From Anaerolineae bacterium (GTDB taxonomy: Bacteria > Chloroflexota > JAHJIN01), in assembly GCA_034435155.1 (NCBI GenBank), contig DAOTYG010000324.1:13622-77621 (forward strand): a stretch of 64,000 nucleotides of DNA. Direction: 5' to 3'. How positions within the stretch are numbered: position 1 is the first letter of the stretch; each line of letters begins with the position of its first letter. Positions 1-62,805 of this stretch are shown one piece after another. Under the pieces are notes generated by a model, which worked only from the letters and a program-made list of their open reading frames with translations, was not told the origin of the DNA and made no database searches. The position numbers were made by a program, and so were the translations under genes.

Positions 1-595
1 TGATCACCGGCCCCACCAAGGACAGGGGCGGGATGATGGCGTTGACACGCGAACCGTCGGGCAGCCGGGCGTCCACGTAGGGCTGCGACTCGTCGCAACG
101 GCGGCCCAGGGGCGAGATGATGCGGTCAATGATGCGCATCACGTGCTCGTCGCTCTCGAAAACCACGTCCGTCTCGTAGAGCCGACCTTTCTGCTCGATG
201 TAGACCTGCCGGGGGCCATTGACCATGATCTCGGTGATGGTCTCGTCCTTGAGGAACGGCTCGATCGGCCCCAGGCCCAGGATCTCGGAGATGATCTCCT
301 CAAAGAGCCGATACCTTTCGGTGCGGCTGAGGGTGAGGTTCTCTTGCTCCAGGATGCTATCAAATAATCCCTGGACCAGCTTACGCACCTGGTCTGTTTG
401 GGTCAGGTCCATCTTGGGGTCCAGTTCTGCCATGAGCCGATTCTGAACCCGCGCTTTCAGGTCAAAGTAGGTATCCCGGGCCGGGGCCAGGACCGGGCGT
501 TTGAAGGCCAGACCAGTCCCCGCACTCCCGCTGGCCGGCGGCGGGGTGGCGCCGACAGGTGGTTTAACGCCTTCGATACGTTTCAGAAGTGACAT
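1..595 (-). CDS. cpaF: CpaF/TadA-family Tad pilus ATPase, second tandem paralog (N-terminal ~198 aa; 3' part lies outside window)
   Basis: Manual translation of minus strand from ATG at 593-595 gives MSLLKRIEGVKPPVGATPPP...DESQPYVDARLPDGSRVNAIIPPLSLVGPVI, ~85% identical to the N-terminus of the downstream cpaF (608..1999). Not in ORF track because it runs off the window edge. Confidence 0.8.
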   Translation of the reverse strand, partial: MSLLKRIEGVKPPVGATPPPASGSAGTGLAFKRPVLAPARDTYFDLKARVQNRLMAELDPKMDLTQTDQVRKLVQGLFDSILEQENLTLSRTERYRLFEEIISEILGLGPIEPFLKDETITEIMVNGPRQVYIEQKGRLYETDVVFESDEHVMRIIDRIISPLGRRCDESQPYVDARLPDGSRVNAIIPPLSLVGPVI

Positions 596-607
596 GGCGA
601 ACCTCCT

Positions 608-1999
608 CTACAGGCGCACGGAGACGCCAAAGATGTCCGGCGGCAGATAGATATTCGTAGCCTCGATGCGCTCGATGAACTTGGGGCGGATGCCGGTGGG
701 TTGCAATCGTCCGATCACCCGGCCGTCCTCAATGCCGGTCTGCTGGAAGCGAAAGAGGTCTTGCAGCACGATGACATCGCCTTCCATGCCCTGGACCTCG
801 GTTACGCTCACCACCTTGCGCGACCCATCACGGAACCGTTCCTCGTGGACGATCAGGTCAATAGCCCGGGAGACCTGTTCGCGGATGGCACGCACCGGCA
901 GGTCATAGCCGGCCATCAGCACCATGGTCTCCAACCGGGCCAGGGTGTCGCGGGGGCTGTTGGAGTGCAGGGTGGTCATGCTGCCGTCATGGCCGGTATT
1001 CATGGCTTGCAGCATGTCCAGGGCCTCTGGCCCCCGGCACTCGCCGACGATGATGCGGTCAGGGCGCATCCGCAGGCTGTTGATCACCAGGTCTCGGATG
1101 GTCACCTCGCCCTTGCCCTCGATGTTGGGGGGGCGGGATTCCAGGGTGACCACGTGTCTCTGGCGGAGTTGCAGTTCGGCGGCGTTCTCGATGGTGATGA
1201 TGCGCTCATCGCCGGGTATAAAGGAGGACAGGATGTTGAGCAGGGTGGTCTTGCCGGAACCACCGCCGCCGGAGACCACGATGTTGAGCCTGGCGATAAC
1301 GCAGGCTTTCAGGAACTCCACCAGCTCGGGCGTCAAGGTGCCGAAGCGGATCAGGTCCTCGATGGTGAGGGGGATCTTGGCGAACTTGCGGATGGTGATC
1401 ACCGGCCCCACCAGGGACAGGGGGGGGATAATGGCGTTGACGCGCGAACCGTCGGGCAGCCGGGCGTCCACGTAGGGCTGCGACTCGTCGCAACGGCGGC
1501 CCAGGGGCGAGACGATGCGGTCAATGATGCGCATCACGTGCTCGTCATTCTCAAAGGTGATATCGGTCTTGTAGACCCGACCTTTCTGCTCGATGTAGAC
1601 CTTGCGGGGGCCGTTGACCATGATCTCGGTGATGGTCTCGTCCTTGAGGAGCGGCTCGATCGGTCCCAGCCCCAGGATCTCGGCCACGATCTGTTCAAAG
1701 AGCCGATACCGTTCGGTGCGGCTGAGGGTGAGGTTCTCCTCTTCCAGGATGGCATCGAATAGCTCCTGGATGGTTTGTCGCACTTTTTCGGTCTGGGACA
1801 GGTCCATAGTCGGGTCCAGTTCTGAGATGAGCCGACTCTGGACCCGGGCTTTCAGGTCAACATAGGTATCCCGGGCCGGGGCCAGGACCGGGCGTTTGAA
1901 GGCCAGACCAGTCCCTCCACTTCCACTGCTGCCGCTGGCCGGTGGCGGGGTCGCACCAGCGGGCGGTTTGACGCTCTCGATGCGTTTTAGAAGTGACAT
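608..1999 (-). CDS. cpaF: CpaF/TadA type II/IV secretion ATPase of Tad (Flp) pilus
   Basis: 463 aa; Walker A VVSGGGGSGKTTLLN, conserved ESRPPNIEG, GECRG, HDGSMTTLHSN motifs of CpaF/VirB11-type ATPases; ATG with AAGGAG RBS. Confidence 0.9.
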   Translation of the reverse strand: MSLLKRIESVKPPAGATPPPASGSSGSGGTGLAFKRPVLAPARDTYVDLKARVQSRLISELDPTMDLSQTEKVRQTIQELFDAILEEENLTLSRTERYRLFEQIVAEILGLGPIEPLLKDETITEIMVNGPRKVYIEQKGRVYKTDITFENDEHVMRIIDRIVSPLGRRCDESQPYVDARLPDGSRVNAIIPPLSLVGPVITIRKFAKIPLTIEDLIRFGTLTPELVEFLKACVIARLNIVVSGGGGSGKTTLLNILSSFIPGDERIITIENAAELQLRQRHVVTLESRPPNIEGKGEVTIRDLVINSLRMRPDRIIVGECRGPEALDMLQAMNTGHDGSMTTLHSNSPRDTLARLETMVLMAGYDLPVRAIREQVSRAIDLIVHEERFRDGSRKVVSVTEVQGMEGDVIVLQDLFRFQQTGIEDGRVIGRLQPTGIRPKFIERIEATNIYLPPDIFGVSVRL

Positions 2000-2032: not shown

Positions 2033-3310
2033 TTACGAACGGCCGAAGAGTCGAAAACCGGCCTTGACCGGTTCCTCGGCGGGGTGAGGGGCACTTTCCG
2101 GCGTCGTGGTGGGTTCCATCACGAACAGGTAGGCCAATTCCAGGATCGCGCGGGATAGGGCGGTATCCCGATGACTGATCACAAAGGGGACACCGTGGTT
2201 CACTGCATGGGAAGCCAGCCGCCAGTCGGCCGGGATCTGGGCCGTCAGCCGATGCTGAATGCTCATCTCGATATCCCGGGCGCTGATCCCTCCCCGGCTA
2301 TCTACCCGATTCAACACCAGCAGCAGCCGGTCCATGGGGAAACCGACGGATTCCATCACCTCGAAGAATAGCTTGGCGTTCTTGATCGGCGGTATCTCTG
2401 GGCTGATCACCAGGACCAGCCGATCGCACAGGTCCATCAGGGCCAGCGTGATCTCGTGCAGGAAAGGCCAGGTATCCACAAAGATCAGGTCGAACCGTTG
2501 CTGCATGGCGGTGAGGATACGGCGCACGTGATCGGCGGTGATCAACTCGGCCATCTCCGGGCGCAAGGGGGCCAGCAGGACCCGGATGCCGGAAGAATGG
2601 GGCACCATGACATCTTCGACCAGCTCCGGGTCCAGGTCGTCAATCATGGATACCAGGTCCACGATGGTTCGCCCGGATTGCTGGTTCAAGAAGATGCCCA
2701 CATCTCCGAATTGCAGGTTACAATCCACCAGGGCCACTTTTTTGTTCGAGTGCAACCGGGCCCCGATCGCCAGGTTAGTGGCCAGGGTGGTACAGCCCAG
2801 CCCGCCTTGGGGGCTAAAGACGACGATGATCCGGCCCCCGGTCGGCGGGGCCACCGTCACGGTCGGTGCGACCACCTCGGCCGGGCCGGCCGGGGCTGCC
2901 ACGCGCCGTCCCCCACCAACCTGATAGACCCGCCGGATCGTGTGGATCAGGTCATCGCCGCTAAAGGGCTTGATCAAAAAGTCCCGTGCCCCGGCCAGCA
3001 TGGATCGCCGCAAATAGTCTGCCTCGCCCTGCACAGACATCATGATCAATTGCGTCTGGGGCACCTGCGCGGTGATGATCTCGGCCGCCGTGATCCCGTC
3101 CATGTCCGGCATATTGATATCCATCAGGATGATATCCGGCTGGAGTTCCCTGGCAGCCTCGATGGCCTCCTTGCCATTGACGGCTGTACCGACTACCTCG
3201 ATGTCTTTTTCAAAGTAGAGCAGTTTGCCCAGGTTTTCCCGGGTCTCACGGATGTCATCCACGATAAGCACGCGGATGGTCGTGGGCGCCGGGGTAGTAG
3301 AATCGCGCAT
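2033..3310 (-). CDS. cpaE: Response-regulator receiver domain fused to CpaE/MinD-like ATPase (Tad pilus assembly, TadZ/CpaE-like)
   Basis: N-terminal REC domain (RVLIVDD...DIILMDINMPDMDG...) followed by deviant Walker A P-loop GGLGCTTLATNLA typical of CpaE/ParA-fold proteins. Confidence 0.85.
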   Translation of the reverse strand: MRDSTTPAPTTIRVLIVDDIRETRENLGKLLYFEKDIEVVGTAVNGKEAIEAARELQPDIILMDINMPDMDGITAAEIITAQVPQTQLIMMSVQGEADYLRRSMLAGARDFLIKPFSGDDLIHTIRRVYQVGGGRRVAAPAGPAEVVAPTVTVAPPTGGRIIVVFSPQGGLGCTTLATNLAIGARLHSNKKVALVDCNLQFGDVGIFLNQQSGRTIVDLVSMIDDLDPELVEDVMVPHSSGIRVLLAPLRPEMAELITADHVRRILTAMQQRFDLIFVDTWPFLHEITLALMDLCDRLVLVISPEIPPIKNAKLFFEVMESVGFPMDRLLLVLNRVDSRGGISARDIEMSIQHRLTAQIPADWRLASHAVNHGVPFVISHRDTALSRAILELAYLFVMEPTTTPESAPHPAEEPVKAGFRLFGRS

Positions 3311-3331: not shown

Positions 3332-4090
3332 TTACGGTGCGACGACCGGCGGGCGCGGGTATTTGTACAGGTCAATGATATAATCCAGATGCACGGCCTC
3401 GATGGTGCCCAGGTCAACGAGGTTGTGGTCTGTCGCTGGCCGCAAGGCCAGGTCCACCGTGCCGTTTTCGCGGGCCCATTTGAGGATCAGGGCATCTTGC
3501 CGGCTGACCTGAAAGATCATCACCGAAGCCTGGCCTTGCTCGGTTTCGCCACCGGCGGCTACCCAGCGGCCGATGTGCAATACCATGACATCTTGCAGGG
3601 TTAACTGGGTGGTGCGACGCCCGCCAGTCTCACCCTCTTTGGCCGGCACATCTAGAGAGAGCAACAGGTCCACCGTGTCTCCCGGCCGGATGGCCCCGGC
3701 CACGCCACTGATGTCGGCGATGGGAAAGGCTACTGCCACCATGCCTTCTGGCAGCAGATAGGGAATACCATATAGCGTGGCCGTGATAGCCAGCATATGG
3801 CTCAGGATCGGCTCATCCCGATAGATACGCTGGGTGGTGATCTTGCCCACCACTTCGTCCAGACGCCGCAGCGCATCCGGTGGCGCCGACTCGGCCAGGA
3901 AGGGCCGCATAGTAACCCAGGGGGCCTGAATTACAGTGCGCTCCTGGATGTCTTGAACCGCCACCACCAGGTCTACCTTCGCCTCCTCCTTGACTTCTCC
4001 CCGGGGTTGGGCCAGGATGAAGAATACACCAGCAAACACGATCACGCCGAGCAAGATCCCCAGGATGATGAATATACGACCTCGTTTCAT
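3332..4090 (-). CDS. cpaB: CpaB/RcpC Flp pilus assembly protein
   Basis: N-terminal TM anchor, SAF-like region and C-terminal RcpC-like sequence; position upstream of cpaE-cpaF; GGAGG RBS. Confidence 0.8.
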   Translation of the reverse strand: MKRGRIFIILGILLGVIVFAGVFFILAQPRGEVKEEAKVDLVVAVQDIQERTVIQAPWVTMRPFLAESAPPDALRRLDEVVGKITTQRIYRDEPILSHMLAITATLYGIPYLLPEGMVAVAFPIADISGVAGAIRPGDTVDLLLSLDVPAKEGETGGRRTTQLTLQDVMVLHIGRWVAAGGETEQGQASVMIFQVSRQDALILKWARENGTVDLALRPATDHNLVDLGTIEAVHLDYIIDLYKYPRPPVVAP

Positions 4091-4144: not shown

Positions 4145-4173
4145 ATTTTACCTCGAAACGGCCAATTTTACAA
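4145..4173 (-). promoter_or_regulatory. Putative sigma-70 promoter (TTGTAA-17-TAAAAT on minus strand) for cpaB-cpaE-cpaF operon
   Basis: Reverse complement of 4145-4173 reads TTGTAAAATTGGCCGTTTCGAGGTAAAAT; ~50 nt upstream of cpaB start. Confidence 0.5.
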
Positions 4174-4369
4174 TAGTACCATAGTCCGATTTGCAGGAGG
4201 TAGAGGGTAACTACAGCCAGGTTGCTCAAAGGCGGTCTGTGACCGCAGTCGTGGACAGAAGCATGGCTGTACGAAACGGAAATCGGAGCACAGGCTGGTA
4301 GTTACGGTAGAGGGGGCATAATAAGAGGGGGTTGCAGCAGCATACTACCGTTACAACCCCCTAAATAAT

Positions 4370-4449
4370 GGACTTTGGACAATCCTGGAGTCGAGCCTTC
4401 AGGCGGGCCATATCTTGACCGGCTAAAGCCTCTACTCCTTGTGGTGTGC
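4370..4449. repeat. MITE-like structured repeat, family GGACTTTGGACAA (truncated copy lacking right TIR)
   Basis: Shares ~85% identity with 4494-4587, 22302-22406 and 36435-36526 elements. Confidence 0.8.
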
Positions 4450-4493
4450 GAATCGTTGTTCAAGGTCCAAGCCGTTACAATCCCCTTAATTAC

Positions 4494-4587
4494 TGGACTT
4501 TGGACAATTCTGGAATCGAGCCTTCAGGTGGGCCATATCTTGACCGGTTCAAGCCTCTTCCTCCTTGTGGCGTGGTTGTCCAAAGTT
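4494..4587. repeat. MITE-like element (~95 bp) with terminal inverted repeats GGACTTTGGACAA / TTGTCCAAAGT and internal AGTAGAGGCTTTAGCCGG hairpin
   Basis: TIRs and internal palindrome read directly. Confidence 0.85.
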
Positions 4588-4653
4588 ATAACCACACCCT
4601 AATATCTGGGGTACTTCAGGGGGGCAACTTTCCATCTACTGGTGCTGGTTTAC

Positions 4654-7600
4654 TTATGGCGTGTAGGACCTCGTGATCAGGGGCAGATAGACACTGAATC
4701 CACCCTGTACTGTCACCACGAAGGGGCCAAAGGTGTTATTCGTATAGCTCCTCTCCGGGATAGTCGGATAGCGATCCGGGTTGACCTGGGCGTAGAGCGT
4801 GTATGTGCCGGTGTTAGTAAAAATATAGGTGAACTGGACGGTCTGGTACGCGCCGGGGGCCAGGCCATATTGCACAGCCGAGCAGCCGACGTTACTGTAT
4901 TCGCCGGCACCGGGGGCATGGGCCGGGTTCACATACAGATCATAGTAGAACGAATAGCAACAGGACGTGGTCACCGGTCCATCGCCCAGGTTGGCCAGGG
5001 TTATGCGAACGGTGGTCGGCTGGTCTTTGGCCGGCTGCGCCGGTACAGTGCTGATCCCGGTCACTGCCAGATCTGGCCGGCGCAGGATATTGGTGTCAGT
5101 GGCAGTATTGTTAGTCTCGTTTTCTGGCTCCGCACAGCCGATAACGACCTGTACGGTCAGGTCCGCCGGCCAGTTCTCTACCAACTGGGCTGGCGCCGGG
5201 TATTCCAGGACCAGAGTCGCCTCGCCGGTGCCACCCACCGGCACCGCTGACACCTCCCGGCGATATTTATGGTTGCCGAGGGCTGTCCAACCGCCGCTTT
5301 TATAGGTGGCGCTGGGATGCAGCGTGGCCGTGATGGCCACCCCGGTGGCGATCTTGTTGCCCTCATTGGCGTACCGGATCGTGTATGTCAGGGTCTGGCA
5401 CAAGGTGGTCGCCGTAACCCCATCGGAAAAATAGATAAAGCGCAGGTCCGGGGCCAGGGTGATCACCTCATTAATGTCCGTGGCGGTGTTGTTGTCCAGG
5501 TTGGTCTCGCCGGTGGCGCGGATGGTCACGGTGTTGGTGATGGGGCCGGGGCTGGCCGTCTCGTTGACCTGCACGGTGATGGTCACGGTGGCGTGCTGGC
5601 CGGCCGGCAGGTCGTTCACGGTGCAGGTGTAGGTCTGGCCGCTCACCAGGTGCCAGCCTGCGCTGCCCTGGAAGGTGGTCTGGGCCGGGATGGTCTCGGT
5701 GAGGACGATGTGCCGGGCCTGGCCGGAGCCGGCGTTGGTGTAGGTGATGGTGTAGGTGAGGATGTCGCCGGCCGAGACGTAGGTCGTGCCGTCGGTCTTG
5801 GTCACTGCCAGGTCTGGGGGCAGGGAGATGATGGGATCCTCGTCCCAGGCGACGTTATCGCCGGGGGCGATGTCCGGCCCGTGGACCTCGTCATAGCTGA
5901 TCTCGACCCGGTTCAGCAGCGTGCCCTCCGCGTCATCGTTGACGCGCAGGGTGAACGTCGTGCTCCCATGACCGCCGTTGCCCGGCAAGATGTCCACTGT
6001 CCGGCTGTAGCGATTGCCGCCCTGGGGTGTCCAGCCGGTACCGATGTACTGGGCCGGCCCGGTAAAGACCTCCGTGAGCACGACGTTGGCGGCGTCTGAG
6101 CGGCCGACGTTGGTGTAAGTGAGCGTATATGTGACGATCTGGCCGGGATGGACCTGATTCAGGCCATTTGACTTGGTTACCTGCAAGTCTACCCAGCAGA
6201 GGAGGGTAGTGTCGTGGGTGGCGTTGTTGTCCTCGCGGGGGTCAGGGCCGTGCGAGCCGTCGTCCCCGATGTAGGCCCAGTTGATCAGCCTATCTGGCGC
6301 GGTAGCAGTGTCGGTGAGGACCCGCACGACAAAGTGAATGGTGTTACTGGCCCCGGGTCCCAGGCTATCAATCGTGGTGGTGTAGGTGCGGCCGTCGGTG
6401 GAGTTGAAAGGCCGGTCGCTGGAGACAAAGATGGTATGAGCGGGGATCACATCGGTGATCACGATGTTCGTCGCTGTCTCATCGCCGCTATTGGCATAAT
6501 AAAGGGTATAGGTGACGAGCTGCCCCAGGGAGACCTCGAGCCGGTCGTCGCTCTTGCTGATACCCAGCTCTGGCGGCGGTGGAGGTGGTGGTCCCCAGGT
6601 GTAATCGAAAACGCCAGAGCCGGCCGTACCGGCGTGCAGCGTCTGCGTCACATAGTCGTCAATGGCCAGGGAATAGACGTACCAGTTCTTCAGTTGGGCG
6701 TTCAATGGATACCACTTGTCTGGGGGAGTGTAACGTTCATCGCCATAGAACAGCACCCCCCCGCCCCCGGTCCCGGCCAGGACGATGGTGGGGGTGATGG
6801 GGTTGACCACCAGGGCATAGACCGGGTTGCCGCCGGCGGACCAGTCTTGCTGCCAGGTATCACTCAAGACTTTGCGGATGTAGATGCCGCCGCCGCTCTC
6901 GCCGACGCCGGCAAAGACCGTGTGCTCGATGTCCACGGCCAGGGCGTTGATGTAGAGAGCCTCGCCGCTCAGGCCGGGGTTGAAGGCCGTCCAGGTCTCG
7001 CCAGCGTCCGTGCTGCGGTAGATGCCATTGTGGTGGGTCCCGGCATAGACGATGGTGGGGGTAAGGGGGTCAATGGCCAGGGCGCGCACGGTATAGTCCG
7101 CGCCGCTGGGCTTGATCCGCTTGTAGACCCAAAGGGCGCCACGGTTGGTGGTCTTGTAGACGCCGCTGCCCGTCCCGGCATAGACGATGGTGGGCGATAC
7201 TGGATCAATGACCAGGGCGTACACATCCAGGGCCTGGGTGGTGGTCAGGCCATTGCTGGCCAGGGTCCAGGTGACGGCATTGGTGGTGGTGTAGATGCCG
7301 TCGTTGGTGCCGGCATAGACCGGGAAGCCGCTGGGGTGGGTAACCGCCAGGGCCCGCACCTCCCGGTCGCCGATGGCCCCGCTGCGGCGTTCCCAGCTTG
7401 CGCCGCCGTCCTGGCTGCGGTATAGGCCGCCGCCCTCGGTGCCGGCATAGACCCGCCAGTCGTAGGCCGGGTTCACGGCGATGGCCCGGACGATGTGGGC
7501 ACTGAGCAGCTTCTCGGGTGGGGTGCCGTTGGCGGTGCTCCAGCTCAGTCCCGCATCCGTAGTGCGGTAGACGCCCCGGCCGGCGGTGCCGGCGTACAGG

Positions 7601-8568
7601 GTGCCGGTCGCGGTGCGGAGCAAGGTGCGAATGCGGCGCGCATTGCTATGAGCCTGGCCGGGTTCCAGGCCCGCGCTGCGCGCGGTCCACGCCGAACCGG
7701 TCCACATGTAGACGCCGTCTTCCGTGCCGGCATAGAGGGTGCTGCCGTCCAGGACCAGGGCGCGCACATCCAGGGCGTCGCCGGCCAGGCCCGCGCTTTT
7801 GGCGGTCCAGGTGGTGGTGATGGCGGTGTTGCACTCGTAGACACCGTAGCCGCCTGTGCCCGCGTATAGGATGCTGCCCTGGGCGATCAGGGCGCGCACA
7901 GAGACCTGGTTGGGCAGTCCATCGCGCATCGCAGCCCAATCGGTGCCGGCCCAGCGGTAGACGCCCCAGTAAGGGGCCACGTTCTCGCAGCCGGCGTAGA
8001 AGGTGCCGTTGGCCACAGCCAGGGCCCGGGTATCGAAAAACGGGGTGCCCATTTTGGTCCAGGAACCGCTGGTGCTCAGAGTATGCGTGTAGACACCTAT
8101 TGGTGTCCCCGCATACAGGATGTTCGCCTCAATGCGCAGGGTGCGCACGGTATTGCTGCCAAGACCCTGACTGCTGATGGGGTACCATTTCCATGGGTGG
8201 TCGGGGTCGGTGTTGTCATACACGCATTTCCACACCCCGCCCTCGTTGGTTCCGGCGTAGACGTTATCAGCACTATCAATGGCCAGGCACAGGACATCCC
8301 GTTTCTCAGTGGAGAACTGGTAATTTTCCAGGGTCCAGAGCAGATTGGAGCCGGAGAAGGTGCCGTGGAATACCCAACCCAGGCGGGTGCCGGCCCAGAG
8401 ATTGCCGGCCGAGTCCACCGCCAGGGCCTGGATCTCGCCGCCCTCCGGGCCGTGCGAGGTATGCCAATACGGCCCGGCATAGACGAGCAGGGCCAGGCTC
8501 AGGAGCAAGAGGATCATCAGGCTCAGCGCGAGCGAGAGCCATAATCCGCGCTGGCGATGGTTGGTCAT
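4654..8568 (-). CDS. Giant (1304 aa) membrane-anchored surface protein: N-terminal signal anchor, ~14 BNR/Asp-box beta-propeller repeats (YAGTxxGVY...SxDxGxSW), poly-Pro linker, ~5 DUF11 repeats, C-terminal CARDB-like domain
   Basis: Periodic LYAGTxxGVY and S-D-G-TW motifs, PPPPPPP linker, repeated DLxVTKS DUF11-like motifs, C-terminal CARDB-like TNTGTYTLYAQVNPD...NNT; ATG at 8566-8568 with GGAGG RBS. Confidence 0.8.
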   Translation of the reverse strand: MTNHRQRGLWLSLALSLMILLLLSLALLVYAGPYWHTSHGPEGGEIQALAVDSAGNLWAGTRLGWVFHGTFSGSNLLWTLENYQFSTEKRDVLCLAIDSADNVYAGTNEGGVWKCVYDNTDPDHPWKWYPISSQGLGSNTVRTLRIEANILYAGTPIGVYTHTLSTSGSWTKMGTPFFDTRALAVANGTFYAGCENVAPYWGVYRWAGTDWAAMRDGLPNQVSVRALIAQGSILYAGTGGYGVYECNTAITTTWTAKSAGLAGDALDVRALVLDGSTLYAGTEDGVYMWTGSAWTARSAGLEPGQAHSNARRIRTLLRTATGTLYAGTAGRGVYRTTDAGLSWSTANGTPPEKLLSAHIVRAIAVNPAYDWRVYAGTEGGGLYRSQDGGASWERRSGAIGDREVRALAVTHPSGFPVYAGTNDGIYTTTNAVTWTLASNGLTTTQALDVYALVIDPVSPTIVYAGTGSGVYKTTNRGALWVYKRIKPSGADYTVRALAIDPLTPTIVYAGTHHNGIYRSTDAGETWTAFNPGLSGEALYINALAVDIEHTVFAGVGESGGGIYIRKVLSDTWQQDWSAGGNPVYALVVNPITPTIVLAGTGGGGVLFYGDERYTPPDKWYPLNAQLKNWYVYSLAIDDYVTQTLHAGTAGSGVFDYTWGPPPPPPPELGISKSDDRLEVSLGQLVTYTLYYANSGDETATNIVITDVIPAHTIFVSSDRPFNSTDGRTYTTTIDSLGPGASNTIHFVVRVLTDTATAPDRLINWAYIGDDGSHGPDPREDNNATHDTTLLCWVDLQVTKSNGLNQVHPGQIVTYTLTYTNVGRSDAANVVLTEVFTGPAQYIGTGWTPQGGNRYSRTVDILPGNGGHGSTTFTLRVNDDAEGTLLNRVEISYDEVHGPDIAPGDNVAWDEDPIISLPPDLAVTKTDGTTYVSAGDILTYTITYTNAGSGQARHIVLTETIPAQTTFQGSAGWHLVSGQTYTCTVNDLPAGQHATVTITVQVNETASPGPITNTVTIRATGETNLDNNTATDINEVITLAPDLRFIYFSDGVTATTLCQTLTYTIRYANEGNKIATGVAITATLHPSATYKSGGWTALGNHKYRREVSAVPVGGTGEATLVLEYPAPAQLVENWPADLTVQVVIGCAEPENETNNTATDTNILRRPDLAVTGISTVPAQPAKDQPTTVRITLANLGDGPVTTSCCYSFYYDLYVNPAHAPGAGEYSNVGCSAVQYGLAPGAYQTVQFTYIFTNTGTYTLYAQVNPDRYPTIPERSYTNNTFGPFVVTVQGGFSVYLPLITRSYTP

Positions 8569-8574
8569 TGGCCT

Positions 8575-9035
8575 TCCTCCTCGTATATTTGCTCGCGCGG
8601 GGTCTGCCCCTTTTGCTCGCGCGGGGTCTGCGACCCCGCGCCCGGCGGCTTCTGTGCTCGCGCGGGGTCTGCGACCCCGCGCCCGGCGGCGGGTGACACA
8701 CCCGCCGCGAGCTGTGCTCGCGCGGGGTCTGCGACCCCGCGCCCGGCGGCTTCTGTGCTCACGCGGGGTCTGCGACCCAAGTGCTCACGCGGGGTCTGCG
8801 ACCCCGCGCCCGGCGGCTTCTGTGCTCACGCGGGGTCTGCGACCCCGCGCCCGGCGGCATCTTGTGCTCACGCGGGGTCTGCGACCCCGCGCCCGGCGGC
8901 TTCTGTGCTCACGCGGGGTCTGCGACCCCACACCCAGCGGCGGGTGACACACCCGCCGCGAGCACAGTTGTTCCCGCCGCGAGCACAGTTGTTCCTGTGC
9001 CATGTGGGGTCTGCGACCCCGCGCCCGGTGGCGGG
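8575..9035. repeat. Tandem array (~9 copies, ~41-bp period) of hairpin repeat TGCTC[GA]CGCGGGGTCTGCGACCCCGCGCCCGGCGGC (10-bp perfect stem GCGCGGGGTC/GACCCCGCGC)
   Basis: Directly visible periodic repeats between the surface-protein start and the TadG-PQQ stop; inter-repeat segments are short (6-25 nt) and recurrent, not unique. Confidence 0.9.
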
Positions 9036-9263
9036 TGACACTCCCTACCGTCGCCGCTGCGAGCACAGTTGTTTGAACCGGCGCGAGAGCAGTTGGCGCG
9101 GCGTCCCCATATAAAGTCGTCGGCGCTGGAACCCAGGCCGACGACTCGCTATGCCTTCTTGGAACCCGAAAACCGGCGCGCTCCACCCTGCCGCAGGTTT
9201 TTGAACCTGGGGCAGGATTAAAACAAGGTGCGACGCACGCTCGTGCGTCGCACCTGGATGCGG

Positions 9264-11210
9264 CTACCAAAGCAGCTTGCTCTCCTGGTTGGCCGGGTTC
9301 AGGTCCACGCCATAGACCAGGTTGTCGCAGCCGCCGAAGTAGACCCAGTTGTTAGCCGCTACCTCCATGTTGGAGTGCAGGTCGGCGTCCAACTGATATT
9401 GCTGATCCGACTGACCGCCGACTTTGGAGATGGCCTCAAAGTAGCCACGCCCCTGGTCGCCATAGACGCTGCCGGAGTGGGTCTGGCAGCCAAAATAGAC
9501 ATAGTCGGTGGCCAGGGCCGGCGAGCAGTGCCAGGCGGCCCGGTTTGGATAGGTGGTATCTGGTTGCTTCATCCCCAGGGTGATGGACCACACCAGGCTG
9601 GCCGAGGTGCCCTGGTCCAACAGCTTGTAGGCGGTGGCCTTTTCGCTGCTAAAGTAGACGTAGCGATTACCGCCCACCTCTTCTATCGCCGGGGTGCAGG
9701 AGAGCGCGTAGTTGGCCGCGTAGCTCCACTTCACCGCCCCCGTCTCTTTGTTGACGGCATATAGCTTGCCGTCCCGGCAGCCGATGTACAGGGTGTCCCC
9801 ATAGATGACCGGCGAGCCATCGAATCCCTCAAAGTTGTTGCTGGAGCTGATCTTGCTGCTCCACTTGACCTGACCGTTGGAATAGAAGGCATAGACCATA
9901 CCGTACGTGGCGCTGCCGCCGCTGCCGCAGCCGTCTTTGGGCTGGCTGCAGGCCATGTAGATGATGTCCGAACGACCACCCAGGCCGTGGTTGATGGCGT
10001 CCTGGTCTGTGCGAGTTTCTACCCAGGGGTTGACGTTGGTCCCGCCGAAGAGCTGGACCCGGCCGCTGGACCAGGACCCGCCAGAGACCGGCGTGCCGTC
10101 ATCCACGTCAAAGGCATACAGGTAACCGCCCCGGGAACCCACATAGACCACTTCGTTGTCACTGGAAAAGGCCGGCCGGGAGTCCACGTAGCTCTCGCCA
10201 TAGACGCCCTTGTGATAGCCCGGGGCCTGGATGTTCTTGGACCAGATCCGCTGCCCGGTGCTGCCGTCCAGGCAGTAAAGGTATCCCTTGCTGGAGGTGC
10301 CCCCATCGCCGGGGACGGTGATGAAATAGATCAGGGTTTTGCCGTTCCGGTTCAGCACCCGCACCTGCCCCTGGACCATGGGCCAGCGGTTGTTTTCGCC
10401 GGTGCTGGTGCTTTCCTCCGTCCACCCGTAGGTCGTGCCGGTCCCGTCTGTGGCCGGGCGGAACCGCCACCAGGCGTGGGTTTTCTTGCTGCCGTCCTGT
10501 TTGCCCAGGGCGTTCAGGCAGTAAAGGTAGCCGTCACGGCAGCCCACGTAGACCACCTCCCGGTTGCCGGCATACGGGTCCACGTAGTAGAACGGCGTGG
10601 CGTGCACGTCACCGCCGTAGGTGCGGAAGGTCCAGGTGACCTTGAAGATGCCCCGATAGCCGGCGGCGGCGGCGGTCACATCCACGTTATGAAATCCCAG
10701 GACACCGGCAAAGAACATCGAGGTGTTGCGCCGGGCATCCACCCGCACGCACATCTCCTTGGCGATGTCCTGGGCCTGAGAGATGGCATCCTGGTAAAAG
10801 ACCGTCACCGAGACCTCATCCCCGCCGATGGTGGTCGTATACCTGTAGTTCGTGCCAGAGCCGCCGTCCCAGTCGGGGTCAAAATCCGTGGTGGAATAGG
10901 ACTGTGGCACCGAGCCGGAATCCAACCCGATGTTGCGGGCGTAGCAGCCCAGGGCCTCCCGGGTGGCGTTCTTGACGGCTTCCCACTTTTCGGCGGCGGT
11001 GTCCACCGGGGCCGGGGTGCGGCGCGCGCCGGCCATCGTCGCCGCGTCCACGATGCCCTGCAGGTCCCGCTTGGTGTAGTACATATAGCCCACATCGGTG
11101 ACCAGCACCAGGAACCCGATCAGGGCCACGATGAGAAAGGCAAAGAGCACCACGTTCTGCCCGGCCTCTCGCTGCGATTGCTTGCACGTCCTCTGTTGTG
11201 GCTTGTTCAT
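9264..11210 (-). CDS. TadG/TadE-like pseudopilin N-terminal domain fused to PQQ-repeat beta-propeller (start revised to ATG 11208-11210)
   Basis: MNKPQQ...VVLFAFLIVALIGFLVLVTDVGYMYYTKRDLQG is a TadE/TadG-type N-terminus; downstream repeated PQQ-like blades (VVYVGCRDGYLYCL, VVYVGSRGGYLYAFD, LYIGCRDGKLYAVNKETGAVKW); AAGGAGGG RBS before the internal ATG. Confidence 0.75.
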   Translation of the reverse strand: MNKPQQRTCKQSQREAGQNVVLFAFLIVALIGFLVLVTDVGYMYYTKRDLQGIVDAATMAGARRTPAPVDTAAEKWEAVKNATREALGCYARNIGLDSGSVPQSYSTTDFDPDWDGGSGTNYRYTTTIGGDEVSVTVFYQDAISQAQDIAKEMCVRVDARRNTSMFFAGVLGFHNVDVTAAAAGYRGIFKVTWTFRTYGGDVHATPFYYVDPYAGNREVVYVGCRDGYLYCLNALGKQDGSKKTHAWWRFRPATDGTGTTYGWTEESTSTGENNRWPMVQGQVRVLNRNGKTLIYFITVPGDGGTSSKGYLYCLDGSTGQRIWSKNIQAPGYHKGVYGESYVDSRPAFSSDNEVVYVGSRGGYLYAFDVDDGTPVSGGSWSSGRVQLFGGTNVNPWVETRTDQDAINHGLGGRSDIIYMACSQPKDGCGSGGSATYGMVYAFYSNGQVKWSSKISSSNNFEGFDGSPVIYGDTLYIGCRDGKLYAVNKETGAVKWSYAANYALSCTPAIEEVGGNRYVYFSSEKATAYKLLDQGTSASLVWSITLGMKQPDTTYPNRAAWHCSPALATDYVYFGCQTHSGSVYGDQGRGYFEAISKVGGQSDQQYQLDADLHSNMEVAANNWVYFGGCDNLVYGVDLNPANQESKLLW

Positions 11211-11435
11211 CTCGATTCCCTCCTTCCGAAAATAACCCCCTCGCTCGCGGCGGTGACCACGTCTACGACCCCCGGCCCAGGCCGGACTGGGTGGCACAAG
11301 CCGTAGGGTATGCCAGCCGCCGTGCGAAGCACGCGGGGTCGCAGACCCCACGCGAGCACACCGGCGTATTTTCGTAAAATCGTGGGGGCCTTTCCAGGCT
11401 GCCCGCAGGCTAGAAAGCCTGCGCTACGCTGCGAC

Positions 11436-11960
11436 CTAGGGGCGCATGATCTCGATCCGCTGCCCCTGCAAGATGATCTCGTCGCCGGTGATCAGGTTGA
11501 TCATCGGCAGAAACACCGGCTGCCGATACGTAACCCGCACGCCGATATAGCCAAAAGTCTGGACCAACGTACACCGGCGGCCGTTCGTGAAATTGTATGG
11601 GCTACCCTGGTTTCCGTCCTTGTCCAGCACATCCTGATAGCTACCGATGCCCCCATCAGCCGTCGTCTCATAGATGGTAATGGCCTGGATGTTCTCCTTG
11701 CCCAGCCAGCCCAGGGCCTTGACGACAGCCTGGTAGATCTCCGTATTGTGATGTCCTGTCCCACTCAGCTTGCAGTATTCCTCCACCACGGCCTGGCGTG
11801 CGCCGGCGGCCGCGGCCTCGGTGAGGGTGATCTGGATCCCAAAGATGATGCCGAACATCATCAAGCCCATGACCATCAGGACGATCATGGGGAGCAGGAT
11901 GGCAAACTCCACCATGCTCTGGCCGTGGGGCCGATGCTGGTGGCGAGCATCATCAGACAT
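11436..11960 (-). CDS. TadE-like Flp pilus assembly protein
   Basis: N-terminus ...GQSMVEFAILLPMIVLMVMGLMMFGIIFG matches TadE (PF07811-like) signature; small size; within Tad cluster. Confidence 0.75.
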   Translation of the reverse strand: MSDDARHQHRPHGQSMVEFAILLPMIVLMVMGLMMFGIIFGIQITLTEAAAAGARQAVVEEYCKLSGTGHHNTEIYQAVVKALGWLGKENIQAITIYETTADGGIGSYQDVLDKDGNQGSPYNFTNGRRCTLVQTFGYIGVRVTYRQPVFLPMINLITGDEIILQGQRIEIMRP

Positions 11961-12077
11961 GGACACTATACCCTTTCCCTGTACCCTCCCGCAGGTTAGA
12001 AAACAACTGCCAACCGAGGTAGCCGGTCATTGGGGCGTAATCTGGTCCCCTCCAACCTGCGGCAGGGTGGGCACCAG

Positions 12078-12622
12078 TTATTCGATCCGCCGGCTTTCCC
12101 GCACCCGGAGCTGGATCGTGTCGCTGGACTTGAACACAAACCCATCGCCCGTGGGTACCGGATACCACACCGGCACGATGACCGGCTGGGCATAGACGAT
12201 CTCCACGCCCAGGCCGGTATTGGATTGCCGCAGGTAATTGGTGAAATTGCCGCTGATCAAGGCCCCGGTGGCCGGGTTGATCTGGTCTTTGATGCTGGAG
12301 ATCGTCCCATCTGCGTTGGGCTGGTAAATGGTGATGGACTGGACCTGGCCCATGCCCAGCCAGCTCATGTTCTGCACAATGGCCTGGTAAATCTCGGTGT
12401 TCTGGTGGTCGTTTACTGGATATTCCGCATAGTTCACCACCGAGCCGGCCCGTGCTCCGGCGGCGGCCGCGTTCGCCAGGGTGACCTGGGCGTTAAAGAT
12501 GAACCCAAAGGCAAAGATGCCCATCACGATCAACAGGACCAGGGGCAGGATCAACGCGAACTCGAGCATCTGCTGCCCGTGTGATTGATGGACACCGTGG
12601 AGGAAGCGCTGGCATCCGCTCA
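12078..12622 (-). CDS. TadE-like Flp pilus assembly protein (second paralog; start at internal ATG 12620-12622)
   Basis: ...GQQMLEFALILPLVLLIVMGIFAFGFIF TadE-like N-terminus; same REP-containing upstream motif as the neighbouring TadE gene. Confidence 0.7.
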
Positions 12623-22226: not shown

Positions 22227-22301
22227 GATTTTTCTCCCTTTTTTCGGCAGTTACCCCGTTCGGTAGGTATGGACCGGCGACCCGTGCGTCGGTAAGAGGT
22301 T

Positions 22302-22406
22302 GGACTTTGGACAACCACTCGCGCCCCACCAGGAGTAGAGGCTTTAGCCGGTTGTGACCACAAGATATAGGCCGTCTAAAGGCTCTACTCCAGATTTGTC
22401 AAGTCC
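22302..22406. repeat. MITE-like element, GGACTTTGGACAA family
   Basis: GGACTTTGGACAA ... TTGTCAAGTCC termini, internal GAGTAGAGGCTTTAGCCGG / CCGTCTAAAGGCTCTACTC inverted repeat; located between degV start and acpP stop. Confidence 0.85.
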
Positions 22407-36434: not shown

Positions 36435-36526
36435 GGACTTTGGACCACACCACAAGGAGGAGTAGAGGCTTTAGCCGGTCGTGCCCACAAGACCTGCAGG
36501 CTCGACTCCAGAATTGTCCAAAGTCC
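36435..36526. repeat. MITE-like element, GGACTTTGGACAA family
   Basis: GGACTTTGGACC ... TTGTCCAAAGTCC termini; located 60 nt upstream of the giant membrane protein gene. Confidence 0.85.
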
Positions 36527-36584
36527 AGTATAGTAGGTTTGAAAGCCCTCGCCCCCAGGTGAGGAAAGCGGAGAGGAGCGGCCT

Positions 36585-62465: not shown

Positions 62466-62805
62466 CCCGCAAGTCAAAGATTCCTGCTCGCGCGGGGTCT
62501 GCGACCCCGCGCCGGCGGCTATCTTGTGCTCGCGCAGGGTGTGCCACCCCGCGCTGGTGGGCGGCGGGTCACCCAGTCAGGCCTGGGCCTGGCAGACCCG
62601 CCGCGAGCGAGGGTCTTATGCTCGCGCGGGGTCTGCGACCCCGCGCTGGTGAGTGGCGGGTCACCCAGTCAGGCCTGGGCCTGGCAGACCCGCCGCGAGC
62701 GAGGGGCACACCCTCTTATGCTCGCGCGGGGTCTGCGACCCCGCGCTGGTGAGTGGCGGGTCACCCAGTCAGGCCTGGGCCTGGCAGACCCGCCGCGAGC
62801 AGTGG
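62466..62805. repeat. Tandem array (3.5 copies, ~95-bp composite unit) of the same GCGCGGGGTCTGCGACCCCGCGC hairpin plus a second GGCGGGTCACCCAGTCAGGCCTGGGCCTGGCAGACCCGCC hairpin
   Basis: Near-identical 95-bp units between darA and the CBS gene. Confidence 0.9.

What the first reader, a model, noticed from the sequence alone, without database searches (positions are those of the whole stretch)
4654..8568. 1304-aa BNR-propeller/DUF11/CARDB surface protein embedded inside the Tad pilus gene cluster
The gene sits between cpaB and the pseudopilin genes, on the same strand as the rest of the locus. It encodes an N-terminal signal anchor, about 14 BNR (SxDxGxTW) propeller blades, a poly-proline linker, five DUF11 repeats and a CARDB domain. 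Canonical tad loci do not contain such a gene. It may be a pilus-associated adhesin or a tip/anchor cargo.
Basis: partly seen in the sequence, partly recalled or inferred. Interest (0 to 1): 0.5.

Follow-up and report, generated by a model that had tools for sequence, protein, structure and literature searches.

The report
Tad pilus-linked propeller-and-stalk surface protein
A large exported protein, built like a bacterial adhesin with a double-propeller head on a stiff stalk, is always encoded next to the tip genes of an adhesive pilus in a small group of Chloroflexota, so it probably works with that pilus, although how it attaches is unknown.

Summary
The ORF is real: 4654-8568, minus strand, 1304 aa. 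It has a signal-like N-terminus, 14 propeller blades (two 7-bladed propellers in a confident AlphaFold2 model), a Pro7 hinge and a CARDB domain. It has four DUF11/CLIPPER domains, not five. A sister allele at over 99% DNA identity has five. Only 4 of the 14 blades carry an Asp-box-like motif.

In 12 independent loci (94% down to 36% protein identity; Chloroflexota where a taxon is given) the gene sits directly after tadE-tadE-tadG. The tadG there is fused to a PQQ-like propeller. In one locus the gene stays with these minor-pilin genes although cpaB, tadZ and cpaF are absent.

It is not a pilin and shows no PilY1-family match, and it lacks the GH74 catalytic aspartates. The propellers are the best-conserved part. 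Stalk length varies from two to five domains.

A conserved extreme C-terminal tail ([VI][YF]LP[LVI][IV]x[KR]) is predicted to be free. It also occurs on other proteins in non-Tad loci.

Best reading: an exported, non-catalytic, adhesin-like accessory of the Tad minor-pilin module. Whether it sits on the cell surface or on the pilus tip is unresolved. It is a new variant of a known kind, of moderate interest.

The parts
4654..8568 (-). Gene for the 1304-aa protein, here called BIG. Layout: signal, two propellers, Pro hinge, four DUF11/CLIPPER domains, CARDB, C-terminal tail.
   Evidence: ORF list and translation; Pfam and NCBIfam; 3093 homologues at E<=1e-10; GC3 0.82.
8473..8568 (-). Residues 1-32: basic n-region, about 22 hydrophobic residues, then VYA followed by G. 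A Sec signal peptide or anchor.
   Evidence: Helix 4-24 in the model. V-x-[AGS]-G is conserved in orthologues, and there is no G/xxxxE prepilin motif.
7534..8472 (-). Propeller A, blades 1-7 (residues 33-345).
   Evidence: Blade motifs; AlphaFold2 pLDDT above 90; Foldseek matches to GH74, HTCS sensors and PorZ.
6592..7533 (-). Propeller B, blades 8-14 (residues 346-659). This is the best-conserved region and holds the four Asp-box-like motifs.
   Evidence: It keeps 44-46% identity in distant orthologues, against 17-33% for the shared stalk domains.
6568..6591 (-). Pro-rich hinge (residues 660-667, PPPPPPPE).
   Evidence: Translation. It is conserved as a Pro-rich segment in orthologues and has low pLDDT at the end of the model.
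5086..6567 (-). Four DUF11/CLIPPER Ig-like stalk domains: residues 668-792, 793-914, 915-1037 and 1038-1161. The first three keep a Lys / Asp-or-Glu / Asn triad. The fourth has lost it.
   Evidence: Pfam DUF11 E 2e-55 with 4 stretches. Repeat alignment. AlphaFold2 beta-sandwiches. Triad spacing matches K715/D748/N806 of the solved CLIPPER domain (PMC12617251).
5476..5822 (-). Segment present twice in tandem in the sister allele, which therefore has one extra DUF11 repeat (1424 aa).
   Evidence: blastn of the window against L001. The 1304-aa and 1424-aa forms are each seen in at least 2 assemblies.
4714..5085 (-). CARDB-like beta-sandwich (residues 1162-1285), kept in all orthologues.
   Evidence: Pfam CARDB E 3e-12; 95-97% of its residues align in distant orthologues; model.
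4657..4692 (-). Extreme C-terminal tail VYLPLITRSYTP. The core is [VI][YF]LP[LVI][IV]x[KR], after a Gly-rich linker.
   Evidence: Conserved in all full-length orthologues. Predicted unstructured, pLDDT about 50. It is the only match in the six-frame translation of the window.
9264..11210 (-). tadG-like minor pilin (648 aa): a Tad N-terminus (REAGQ then NVVLFAFLIVAL) fused to a PQQ-like beta-propeller. It is always the gene immediately upstream of BIG.
   Evidence: Pfam Tad PF13400 plus PQQ_2; alignment A2; adjacency in every locus with upstream flank.
11436..11966 (-). tadE-like minor pilin.
   Evidence: Pfam TadE E 8e-11; leader HGQSMVEF.
12078..12569 (-). tadE-like minor pilin. The start follows the gene call in the near-identical locus L001.
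   Evidence: Pfam TadE E 5e-13; 163-aa call in L001.
3332..4090 (-). cpaB/rcpC.
   Evidence: TIGR03177 E 5e-42, above cutoff.
2033..3310 (-). tadZ/cpaE-type ATPase with an N-terminal receiver domain.
   Evidence: Pfam Response_reg plus AAA_31.
608..1999 (-). cpaF/tadA secretion ATPase.
   Evidence: Pfam T2SSE E 1e-61; TIGR03819 E 3e-103.
9226..9255 (-). Terminator-like hairpin just after the tadG stop codon: a 13-bp stem followed by UGUUUU.
   Evidence: Consensus scan. Fold z-score -5.65. The same hairpin occurs in L002, and hairpins at this junction occur in all lineages.
9114..9147 (-). Second hairpin (GUCGUCGGCCUGGGUUCCAGCGCCGACGAC). In L009 it lies about 20 nt before the BIG start codon.
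   Evidence: Fold z-score -3.0; counterparts in L003 and L009, with one U-A to C-G double change in L009.
8588..9045 (.). Array of at least 8 palindromic REP-like units (GCGGGGTCTGCGACCCCGC) between that hairpin and the BIG ribosome-binding site.
   Evidence: 13 copies in the window against 0 expected. Array length differs in L001 and L015.
4348..4600 (.). Two tandem copies of a dispersed element of about 125 nt, in the gap between BIG and cpaB.
   Evidence: further copies at 22300-22406 and 36446-36531. No Rfam match.
4145..4173 (-). Promoter-like site (TTGTAA, 17 nt, TAAAAT) upstream of cpaB.
   Evidence: Consensus scan only. The number of sites in the region is not above the shuffled expectation.

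Best explanation
BIG is an exported, non-pilin accessory protein that belongs to the minor-pilin (tip) gene module of a Tad pilus variant found in a small group of Chloroflexota. That variant has no secretin gene.

It is built like a fibrillar adhesin:
- A Sec signal takes it across the membrane.
- Two seven-bladed propellers form a non-catalytic ligand-binding head with a cleft of the kind seen in GH74 enzymes. The ligand is most likely a glycan or another conserved ligand.
- A Pro7 hinge joins the head to a stalk of CLIPPER domains. Three of these are probably locked by internal isopeptide bonds. A CARDB domain follows.
- A short free C-terminal tail fastens the base of the stalk.

I think the tail most likely fixes the protein to the cell envelope. 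It would then act beside the pilus in attachment, or as the partner that the propeller-tipped pilus engages.

Shown: gene linkage, domain architecture, fold, absence of pilin and GH74 catalytic features, and the free conserved tail. Inferred: export, ligand binding, isopeptide bonds, where the tail attaches, and any contact with the pilus.
For: Linkage:
- The order tadE-tadE-tadG(PQQ)-BIG occurs in L001-L005, L007/8, L009, L010 and L015-L017, from 94% to 36% identity, with different outer flanks.
- L006, which lacks upstream flank, shows the downstream order BIG-cpaB-tadZ-cpaF.
- Starting from tadG instead, all 5 metagenome loci have BIG immediately downstream.
- L003 keeps XDH-tadE-tadE-tadG-BIG but has no cpaB, tadZ or cpaF.

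Architecture:
- Pfam domains.
- 14 blades, modelled at pLDDT 90.5.
- Two-propeller arrangement like GH74, TM 0.62-0.67.
- Five beta-sandwich domains, pLDDT 86.5.
- K/D-E/N triads in 3 of 4 CLIPPER repeats, matching the solved CLIPPER domain. That domain typically forms adhesin stalks.

Other points:
- The head is the most conserved part and the stalk varies from 2 to 5 domains, including within one population.
- The tail is conserved and unstructured.
- The tail also occurs on other secreted-looking proteins outside Tad loci, which fits a general anchoring tag.
- No secretin gene was called in the complete loci.
Against: - There is no direct evidence of export, surface location, ligand or contact with the pilus.
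- The tail matches no known anchoring signal. It has no LPXTG, no transmembrane segment and no basic end.
- Strong hairpins separate tadG from BIG. Expression may therefore be uncoupled from the minor pilins.
- A conserved head is unusual for adhesins that meet variable targets.
- All relatives come from metagenomes or MAGs. Only 3 of 185,579 species genomes hold one, so the comparative sample is small.
- The Tad operon described for the cultured Chloroflexota member Litorilinea aerophila lists no such gene.
Confidence: 0.55

Rival explanations
1. BIG is a pilus-tip subunit that works like PilC/PilY1 or MshQ. Its last 8-12 residues would add a beta-strand in trans to the TadG/TadE minor-pilin complex. 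The stalk and propellers would then be carried at the tip of the Tad pilus and bear load during retraction. Other proteins with the same tail would be alternative tip cargo.
For: - It is a large non-pilin protein with a Sec-type N-terminus and propellers. Its gene always lies directly after the minor-pilin genes, as pilY1 follows pilX and mshQ follows mshP (PMC12918778).
- It stays with the minor pilins when the machinery genes are absent.
- A conserved extreme C-terminal hydrophobic peptide follows a flexible linker and is predicted to be free. This has the same size and position as the 6-12-residue C-terminal signal of PilC/PilY1.
- Isopeptide-type stalk domains would suit tensile load.
Against: - The same tail is found on an unrelated 410-aa protein and on other BNR-type proteins in loci without tad genes.
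- In Caulobacter the TadG homologue CpaL supplies this strand from its own C-terminus. The TadG here also has a conserved C-terminus of its own.
- There is no Pfam match to the PilC/PilY1 propeller family.
- The propellers are N-terminal and far from the tail, unlike PilY1.
- Terminator-like hairpins separate it from tadG.
Confidence: 0.22
2. BIG is a GH74-like glycoside hydrolase that cuts a polysaccharide (matrix, sheath or substrate) to help the pilus pass or to feed the cell. The stalk would serve as a spacer.
For: - The closest global structural matches are GH74 xyloglucanases, TM 0.62-0.67.
- A family profile hits GH74 chains at E 1e-28 to 1e-34.
- NCBIfam F510_1955 'glycosylhydrolase' gives E 2e-26, but below its cutoff.
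Against: - The GH74 catalytic Asp follows 'YA[RG]T' in the first blade of each propeller, for example D35 of OXG-RCBH.
- None of the 14 blades of BIG has Asp at that position.
- The Glu residues found there in blades 4, 6 and 8 are not conserved in orthologues.
- Sequence identity to GH74 is about 15%.
Confidence: 0.07
3. BIG is a structural part of the Tad machine in the multilayered, secretin-less Chloroflexota envelope, for example a collar or guide through the wall and protein layers.
For: - It has a fixed position between the pilin genes and cpaB.
- No secretin gene occurs in the complete loci.
- Chloroflexota have thick multilayered envelopes that filaments must cross.
Against: - Nothing in the fold suggests a ring or channel.
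- Stalk length varies from 2 to 5 domains, even within one population, which is unlike a machine part of fixed geometry.
- It stays with the minor pilins, not with the machinery genes, in L003.
- The tail is shared with non-Tad proteins.
Confidence: 0.08
4. BIG is an unrelated surface protein that merely sits in the locus. Gene order would be frozen by descent, without a functional link.
For: - Long intergenic gaps on both sides are filled with dispersed repeats.
- A terminator-like site lies upstream, and a promoter-like site lies before cpaB.
- Paralogous propeller proteins are common elsewhere.
Against: - Adjacency is kept down to 36% identity across at least three Chloroflexota lineages, while the outer flanks change.
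- All 5 loci found through tadG carry it.
- The repeats are recent additions. They are absent in the 84%-identical relative and vary between strains.
Confidence: 0.05

Closest known systems
PilC/PilY1 of type IVa pili, and MshQ of MSHA pili (non-pilin tip adhesins)
   Same: - A large Sec-exported non-pilin protein with beta-propeller content.
- Its gene lies directly after the minor-pilin genes.
- It has a short conserved peptide at the very C-terminus.
   Different: - No Pfam match to the PilC/PilY1 family.
- The propellers are N-terminal and of the Sortilin/GH74 type, and an Ig-like stalk separates them from the tail.
- The pilus system is Tad (type IVc), where TadG/CpaL is reported to supply the strand itself.
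- Docking of the tail was not tested.
Fibrillar adhesins with CLIPPER (DUF11) stalks, including the DUF11 giant GhlA of Litorilinea aerophila
   Same: - Tandem CLIPPER/DUF11 Ig-like domains with Lys / Asp-or-Glu / Asn triads, strung like beads.
- An N-terminal hydrophobic segment.
- A variable repeat number.
- A Chloroflexota host in the case of GhlA.
   Different: - Only four stalk domains, against 49 in GhlA.
- The head is a tandem propeller.
- There is no recognised anchor such as LPXTG or a T9SS C-terminal domain.
- The gene is fixed inside a Tad locus, whereas the GhlA neighbourhood showed nothing related.
GH74 xyloglucanases
   Same: - Two seven-bladed propellers in the same mutual arrangement (TM 0.62-0.67).
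- Clear profile-level homology of the blades.
   Different: - The catalytic Asp pair is absent and not conserved.
- About 15% identity.
- BIG carries an added stalk, CARDB domain and tail.
Periplasmic sensor domains of Bacteroides hybrid two-component systems (BT4663, BT4673; Reg_prop) and PorZ of the type IX secretion system
   Same: - Tandem propellers that bind glycans without cutting them.
- Best Foldseek E-values (1e-23 to 1e-21), and a Pfam Reg_prop match at 30.8 bits.
- PorZ TM 0.55.
   Different: - The relative orientation of the two propellers differs (TM 0.36 for the HTCS domains).
- BIG has no kinase, no regulator part and no T9SS C-terminal domain.
- NCBIfam PorZ scores far below its cutoff, 38.7 against 260.
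Tad 'Tip' minor-pilin complexes (Myxococcus KilL/M/N; TadE/F/G; CpaL)
   Same: The neighbouring tadE-tadE-tadG set fits this model. TadG carries a large variable domain, here a PQQ-like propeller, that would be exposed at the pilus end.
   Different: BIG itself has no prepilin leader and no pilin helix. It cannot be a fourth minor pilin. No such non-pilin partner is described for these Tips in the papers read.

Membership tests
Tad (type IVc) pilus locus, as context | Presence of CpaF/TadA ATPase, TadZ/CpaE, CpaB/RcpC and TadE/TadG-type pseudopilins. | tested here: met
   - T2SSE E 1e-61, TIGR03819 E 3e-103, TIGR03177 E 5e-42, and TadE and Tad Pfam hits.
- tadB and tadC lie in relatives' loci and fall outside this window.
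- No flp gene was found in the window.
Type IV pilin / Tad pseudopilin (TadE, TadF, TadG) | A prepilin leader ending in Gly, followed by a hydrophobic helix with Glu at position 5, and a Pfam TadE (PF07811) or Tad (PF13400) match. | tested here: not met
   - No TadE or Tad hit for BIG.
- The residue before the hydrophobic stretch is not a conserved Gly, and there is no Glu (alignment A1).
- The neighbouring TadE and TadG genes do show G|QSMVEF, G|QQMLEF and G|QNVVLF.
PilC/PilY1 family | [quoted passage not shown] | tested here: not met
   The family is not among the 12 Pfam families matched at E<=0.01.
PilC/PilY1 family | Gene placed directly after the minor-pilin genes, and a conserved extreme C-terminal peptide. 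| tested here: met
   Adjacency to tadG in all loci. A conserved, unstructured tail. These are resemblances in gene layout and sequence only.
PilC/PilY1 family | The C-terminal peptide strand-complements the PilK-type minor pilin. | not testable with these tools
   This needs a multimer prediction or an experiment.
Glycoside hydrolase family 74 | Two seven-bladed beta-propellers forming a substrate cleft. | tested here: met
   AlphaFold2 model; Foldseek TM 0.62-0.67 to many GH74 structures.
Glycoside hydrolase family 74 | A pair of catalytic Asp residues, one per propeller, in the 'YARTD(I/V)GG' motif. | tested here: not met
   - D35 of OXG-RCBH aligns to the residue after 'YAGT'.
- The 14 blades of BIG have R, N, P, E, G, E, A, E, N, G, H, G, G and A there.
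- The Glu positions vary in orthologues.
CLIPPER (DUF11, PF01345) isopeptide domain | A Pfam match above the gathering score. | tested here: met
   186.2 bits against a cutoff of 24.6, with four stretches. TIGR01451 scores 96 bits against 24.
CLIPPER (DUF11, PF01345) isopeptide domain | A Lys / Asp-or-Glu / Asn triad that forms the internal isopeptide bond. | tested here: inconclusive
   - The triad residues are present, with the expected spacing, in repeats 1-3 and absent in repeat 4 (compared with K715/D748/N806).
- Bond formation itself cannot be shown from sequence.
BNR/Asp-box repeat (PF02012) | An S-x-D-x-G-x-T-W motif in each blade, and a Pfam gathering score of 27 bits. | tested here: not met
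   Pfam BNR scores 26.0 bits, below 27. A relaxed motif is found in 4 of 14 blades.
CARDB (PF07705) | A Pfam match above the gathering score. | tested here: met
   47.1 bits against 22.7, residues 1164-1280.
Sortase-anchored wall protein | C-terminal LPXTG-type motif, then a hydrophobic segment, then basic residues. | tested here: not met
   - The protein ends ...GGFSVYLPLITRSYTP, with no hydrophobic segment after the motif.
- By contrast, the small protein next to BIG in distant loci ends in MP[AT]TG, a hydrophobic segment and basic residues.
Fibrillar adhesin (as used in PMC12617251) | Signal peptide, adhesive domain, tandem stalk domains and a sorting or anchor domain. | tested here: inconclusive
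   - The stalk is met.
- A signal-like N-terminus is present.
- The adhesive role of the propellers is inferred only.
- The anchor is an undescribed tail.

The most novel reading that the evidence does not exclude
BIG is the first PilY1/MshQ-like non-pilin tip protein of a Tad (type IVc) pilus. Its conserved 8-12-residue C-terminal tail would insert as a beta-strand into the TadE/TadG tip complex. The pilus of these secretin-less Chloroflexota would then carry an isopeptide-stabilised stalk with a double-propeller head. The other proteins bearing the same [YF]LP[LVI][IV]x[KR] tail would be interchangeable tip cargo encoded elsewhere, as pilC1 and pilC2 are in Neisseria.
Probability: 0.2. Interest if true: 0.75.

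Novelty: new variant of a known kind. Interest (0 to 1): 0.5.

Why it matters
Tad pili are usually described with only TadE/F/G at their tip. Recent work argues that tip complexes of all type IV filaments are assembled by a C-terminal beta-strand, and that modelling may reveal unknown tip subunits (PMC12918778).

This locus offers a concrete candidate in a phylum whose envelope and appendages are poorly known. The candidate is a large, conserved, non-pilin protein tied to the minor-pilin module, next to a TadG that carries its own propeller.

If the protein acts with the pilus, it would show how a Tad pilus in a secretin-less envelope gains an adhesive head.

The short C-terminal tail is shared with unrelated proteins and matches no described sorting signal. 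It may be a separate lead to a surface-anchoring or docking mechanism in Chloroflexota. If neither holds, the protein is one more uncharacterised surface adhesin.

Tried and rejected
- **Prepilin reading of the N-terminus (RQRG|LWLSL).** Rejected. The Gly is not conserved and there is no Glu5.
- **GH74 enzyme.** The fold matches, but the catalytic Asp residues are absent.
- **Sequence search of the C-terminal half against the PDB.** No hit, even at E<=1. Foldseek with the stalk model returned only generic tandem Ig-like arrays with TM below 0.25.
- **Rfam.** Nothing on the whole window at gathering scores. Nothing on the BIG-cpaB gap at E<=1.
- **The 125-nt tandem repeat downstream.** It is a dispersed element, not locus-specific.
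- **The REP-like array upstream.** It is genome-wide and varies between strains.
- **Remnant of the small sortase-type gene of distant loci.** Looked for in the window's 560-nt gap; none found.
- **Tail as a Tad-specific signal.** Weakened, because four tail-bearing relatives and one unrelated protein lie in non-Tad loci.
- **Literature search for the tail strings.** Nothing relevant.
- **Scan of 185,579 species genomes.** Only 3 loci. The metagenome scan through TadG gave only 5, so the statistics rest on 12 loci.
- **flp pilin gene.** None found in the window.
- **Multimer or fusion modelling of the tail with the minor pilins.** Not possible.

Full report
**The observation**

The ORF at 4654-8568 on the minus strand is real and encodes 1304 residues. 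A GAGGAGG-type ribosome-binding site lies just upstream of its ATG. Third-position GC is 0.82, as in neighbouring genes. The protein has thousands of homologues.

All neighbours lie on the same strand:
- cpaF/tadA, 608-1999
- a receiver-domain tadZ/cpaE, 2033-3310
- cpaB, 3332-4090
- then the gene itself
- a tadG-like gene whose product joins a Tad N-terminus to a PQQ-like propeller, 9264-11210
- two tadE genes, 11436-11966 and 12078-12569
- an unrelated xanthine-dehydrogenase-type gene

**Anatomy**

- Residues 1-32 form a basic then hydrophobic N-terminus, a helix in the model. It ends in V-x-[AGS] followed by G in all orthologues. This fits a cleaved Sec signal, but I could not test cleavage.
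- Residues 33-659 contain 14 'YAGT..GVY' blades. AlphaFold2, run on a 40-sequence alignment, gives pLDDT 90.5 and pTM 0.88.
- Foldseek finds the same two-propeller arrangement in GH74 xyloglucanases (TM 0.62-0.67). The best E-values go to the glycan-sensing domains of Bacteroides BT4663 and BT4673, and PorZ also matches.
- Only four blades have an Asp-box-like motif, and Pfam BNR is just below its cutoff.
- A Pro7 hinge follows. After it come four DUF11 domains, not five, and then a CARDB domain. The model shows five beta-sandwiches at pLDDT 86.5.
- DUF11 has been renamed CLIPPER. It has been shown to be a CnaA-like stalk domain with an internal Lys-Asn isopeptide bond (PMC12617251). Repeats 1-3 keep the Lys / Asp-or-Glu / Asn triad at the right spacing. 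Repeat 4 has lost it.
- The last 12 residues, VYLPLITRSYTP, follow a Gly-rich linker and are predicted to be unstructured.

**Is it part of the Tad locus?**

I looked up the contigs of relatives at 94%, 90%, 74%, 59%, 57%, 41%, 39%, 37% and 36% identity. I also scanned species genomes and metagenomes.

- In every locus with upstream flank, the gene directly follows tadE-tadE-tadG(PQQ).
- In every locus with downstream flank except one, it is followed by cpaB, REC-tadZ and cpaF (tadB and tadC where the contig extends). In the distant clade a small extra gene intervenes.
- Genes outside this block differ between loci.
- Searching from the tadG side found five metagenome loci, and all have the gene immediately downstream.
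- In L003 the order is xanthine dehydrogenase, tadE, tadE, tadG, BIG, then an alpha/beta hydrolase and an MFS transporter. None of cpaB, tadZ or cpaF is on that contig. The gene therefore travels with the minor-pilin module and not with the machinery.
- No secretin gene was called in the complete loci.
- The family is rare. Only three of 185,579 species genomes hold it, all Chloroflexota MAGs.

**Transcription signals**

A 13-bp-stem hairpin followed by UGUUUU lies just after the tadG stop. A second hairpin follows. Every lineage has one or two strong hairpins at this junction, with z-scores from -3 to -7.8.

In this genome an array of at least eight REP-like palindromes lies between the second hairpin and the ribosome-binding site. 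Its length differs between near-identical strains.

Downstream, the 560-nt gap before cpaB holds two copies of a dispersed 125-nt element. A promoter-like site precedes cpaB.

The gene may therefore be expressed separately from its neighbours. This punctuation is old, and the repeats are recent. Neither points to an insertion of foreign DNA.

**What it is not**

- It is not a pilin. There is no conserved Gly/Glu5 leader and no TadE or Tad match.
- It does not match the PilC/PilY1 family in Pfam.
- It is not a GH74 enzyme. The catalytic Asp that follows 'YART' in GH74 (D35 of OXG-RCBH) is absent from all 14 blades. The Glu residues found at that position are not conserved.
- It is not a sortase substrate.

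**Conservation pattern**

In distant orthologues propeller B keeps 44-46% identity and propeller A 35-40%. The shared stalk domains keep 17-33% and CARDB 23-32%. Stalk repeats 3 and 4 are missing altogether.

Orthologues range from 1062 to 1460 residues, with two to five stalk domains. A five-repeat allele of 1424 aa coexists with this four-repeat allele. Their flanks are 99.3-99.9% identical in DNA, and each form is seen in at least two assemblies.

**The tail**

The core [VI][YF]LP[LVI][IV]x[KR] is present at the extreme C-terminus of all full-length orthologues. It appears only once in the six-frame translation of the window.

It also ends six non-orthologous BNR-type proteins and one unrelated 410-aa protein. 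The contexts I could see for these are not Tad loci. None of 120 PQQ-propeller proteins has it.

I found no NCBIfam model and no paper for it.

Two readings remain:
- It is a general surface-anchoring or docking tag.
- It is a trans beta-strand like the 6-12-residue C-terminal signal of PilC/PilY1 and MshQ. That signal inserts into the PilK-type minor pilin (PMC12918778).

They do not exclude the second, because PilC genes can lie away from the minor-pilin genes (my own knowledge of Neisseria).

**Most likely mechanism**

- The protein is exported by Sec.
- The tandem propellers form a non-catalytic binding head.
- The Pro hinge and the CLIPPER/CARDB stalk hold the head away from the attachment point.
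- The tail fastens the base.

I favour attachment to the cell envelope. The protein would then act with the propeller-tipped Tad pilus in adhesion or cell-cell contact.

My confidence is 0.55 for the general statement that this is an adhesin-like accessory of the Tad minor-pilin module. The tip-docked variant has about 0.2. A hydrolase, a machine part and a mere neighbour are each below 0.1.

Export, ligand, isopeptide bonds and attachment site are all inferred.

**Comparison with known systems and novelty**

The domains are known. CLIPPER-stalk adhesins are known, including one in Chloroflexota (GhlA). Variable Tad tips built from TadE/F/G-like pilins are also known.

I did not find any description of a conserved large non-pilin protein fixed to the Tad minor-pilin module, beside a TadG-propeller fusion and carrying an undescribed C-terminal tail. 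I rate it a new variant of a known kind, with interest 0.5.

**Limits**

- All relatives come from metagenomes or MAGs, and the comparative set is 12 loci.
- No multimer modelling was possible.
- Promoter and terminator calls are consensus matches only.

Noticed in passing
window 4657-4692; also L012:5246-6478, and proteins P0040, P0050, P0083, P0086, P0090, P0105: A short extreme C-terminal tail, [VIT][YF][LM]P[LVIM][IVLMA]x[KRH] plus 0-4 residues, ends several otherwise different secreted-looking proteins. One is a 410-aa protein with no Pfam match. These lie in loci without tad genes. The tail has no transmembrane segment and matches no described sorting signal.
   Followed up: partly
L004:13774-14583, L005:13365-14276, L006:3621-4346, L007:7856-8707: In the distant orthologous loci a small gene lies between BIG and cpaB. 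It encodes a signal peptide, a Pro/Thr/Glu-rich spacer, a CarboxypepD_reg-like domain and an MP[AT]TG motif followed by a hydrophobic segment and a basic end, which is a sortase-type anchor signal. The window has no such gene and no remnant of it. A CarboxypepD_reg protein also follows the tail-bearing P0040 in L012.
   Followed up: partly
window 8588-9045, 11333-11351, 62492-62744: A REP-like palindromic unit (GCGGGGTCTGCGACCCCGC) occurs 13 times in the window, against 0 expected. Its copies are clustered in intergenic arrays. Array length differs between near-identical strains: longer in L001, about 300 nt shorter in L015.
   Followed up: partly
L002:10109-10250: In the 74%-identical relative, a 36-codon insertion follows the conserved first seven codons of the gene and interrupts the signal peptide region. 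It contains a palindrome (GGCGGGTTTGTAACCCGCC) resembling units of the window's repeat array. The true start codon there may lie downstream.
   Followed up: no
window 4348-4600, 22300-22406, 36446-36531: A dispersed element of about 125 nt is present as two tandem copies (about 90% alike) between BIG and cpaB, with two more copies (78-80% identity) elsewhere. It has no Rfam match and folds into a long imperfect hairpin on either strand.
   Followed up: partly
window 1-595, minus strand: A second cpaF/tadA-like gene starts right after the first one (MSLLKRIEGVKPPVGATPPP...). It runs off the window start, so the secretion ATPase is tandemly duplicated.
   Followed up: no
window 9264-11210: The tadG-like minor pilin is fused to a PQQ-like beta-propeller. 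Only four protein clusters with this Tad-plus-PQQ architecture were found among 5.8 billion clusters by the word-based search. The pilus tip itself would therefore carry a propeller.
   Followed up: partly
window 36585-42326, plus strand: A 1913-aa ORF with coding-like GC3 (0.90) has no Pfam match. It has an N-terminal zinc-ribbon-like CxxC...CxxC motif and a Leu/Ala/Trp-rich sequence with apparently many membrane spans. A copy of the 125-nt element lies just upstream.
   Followed up: no
window 5476-5822, compared with L001:12380-13573: The number of stalk repeats varies within one population. Alleles with four and five DUF11 repeats (1304 and 1424 aa) are each found in at least two assemblies, with flanks identical or nearly so.
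   Followed up: yes
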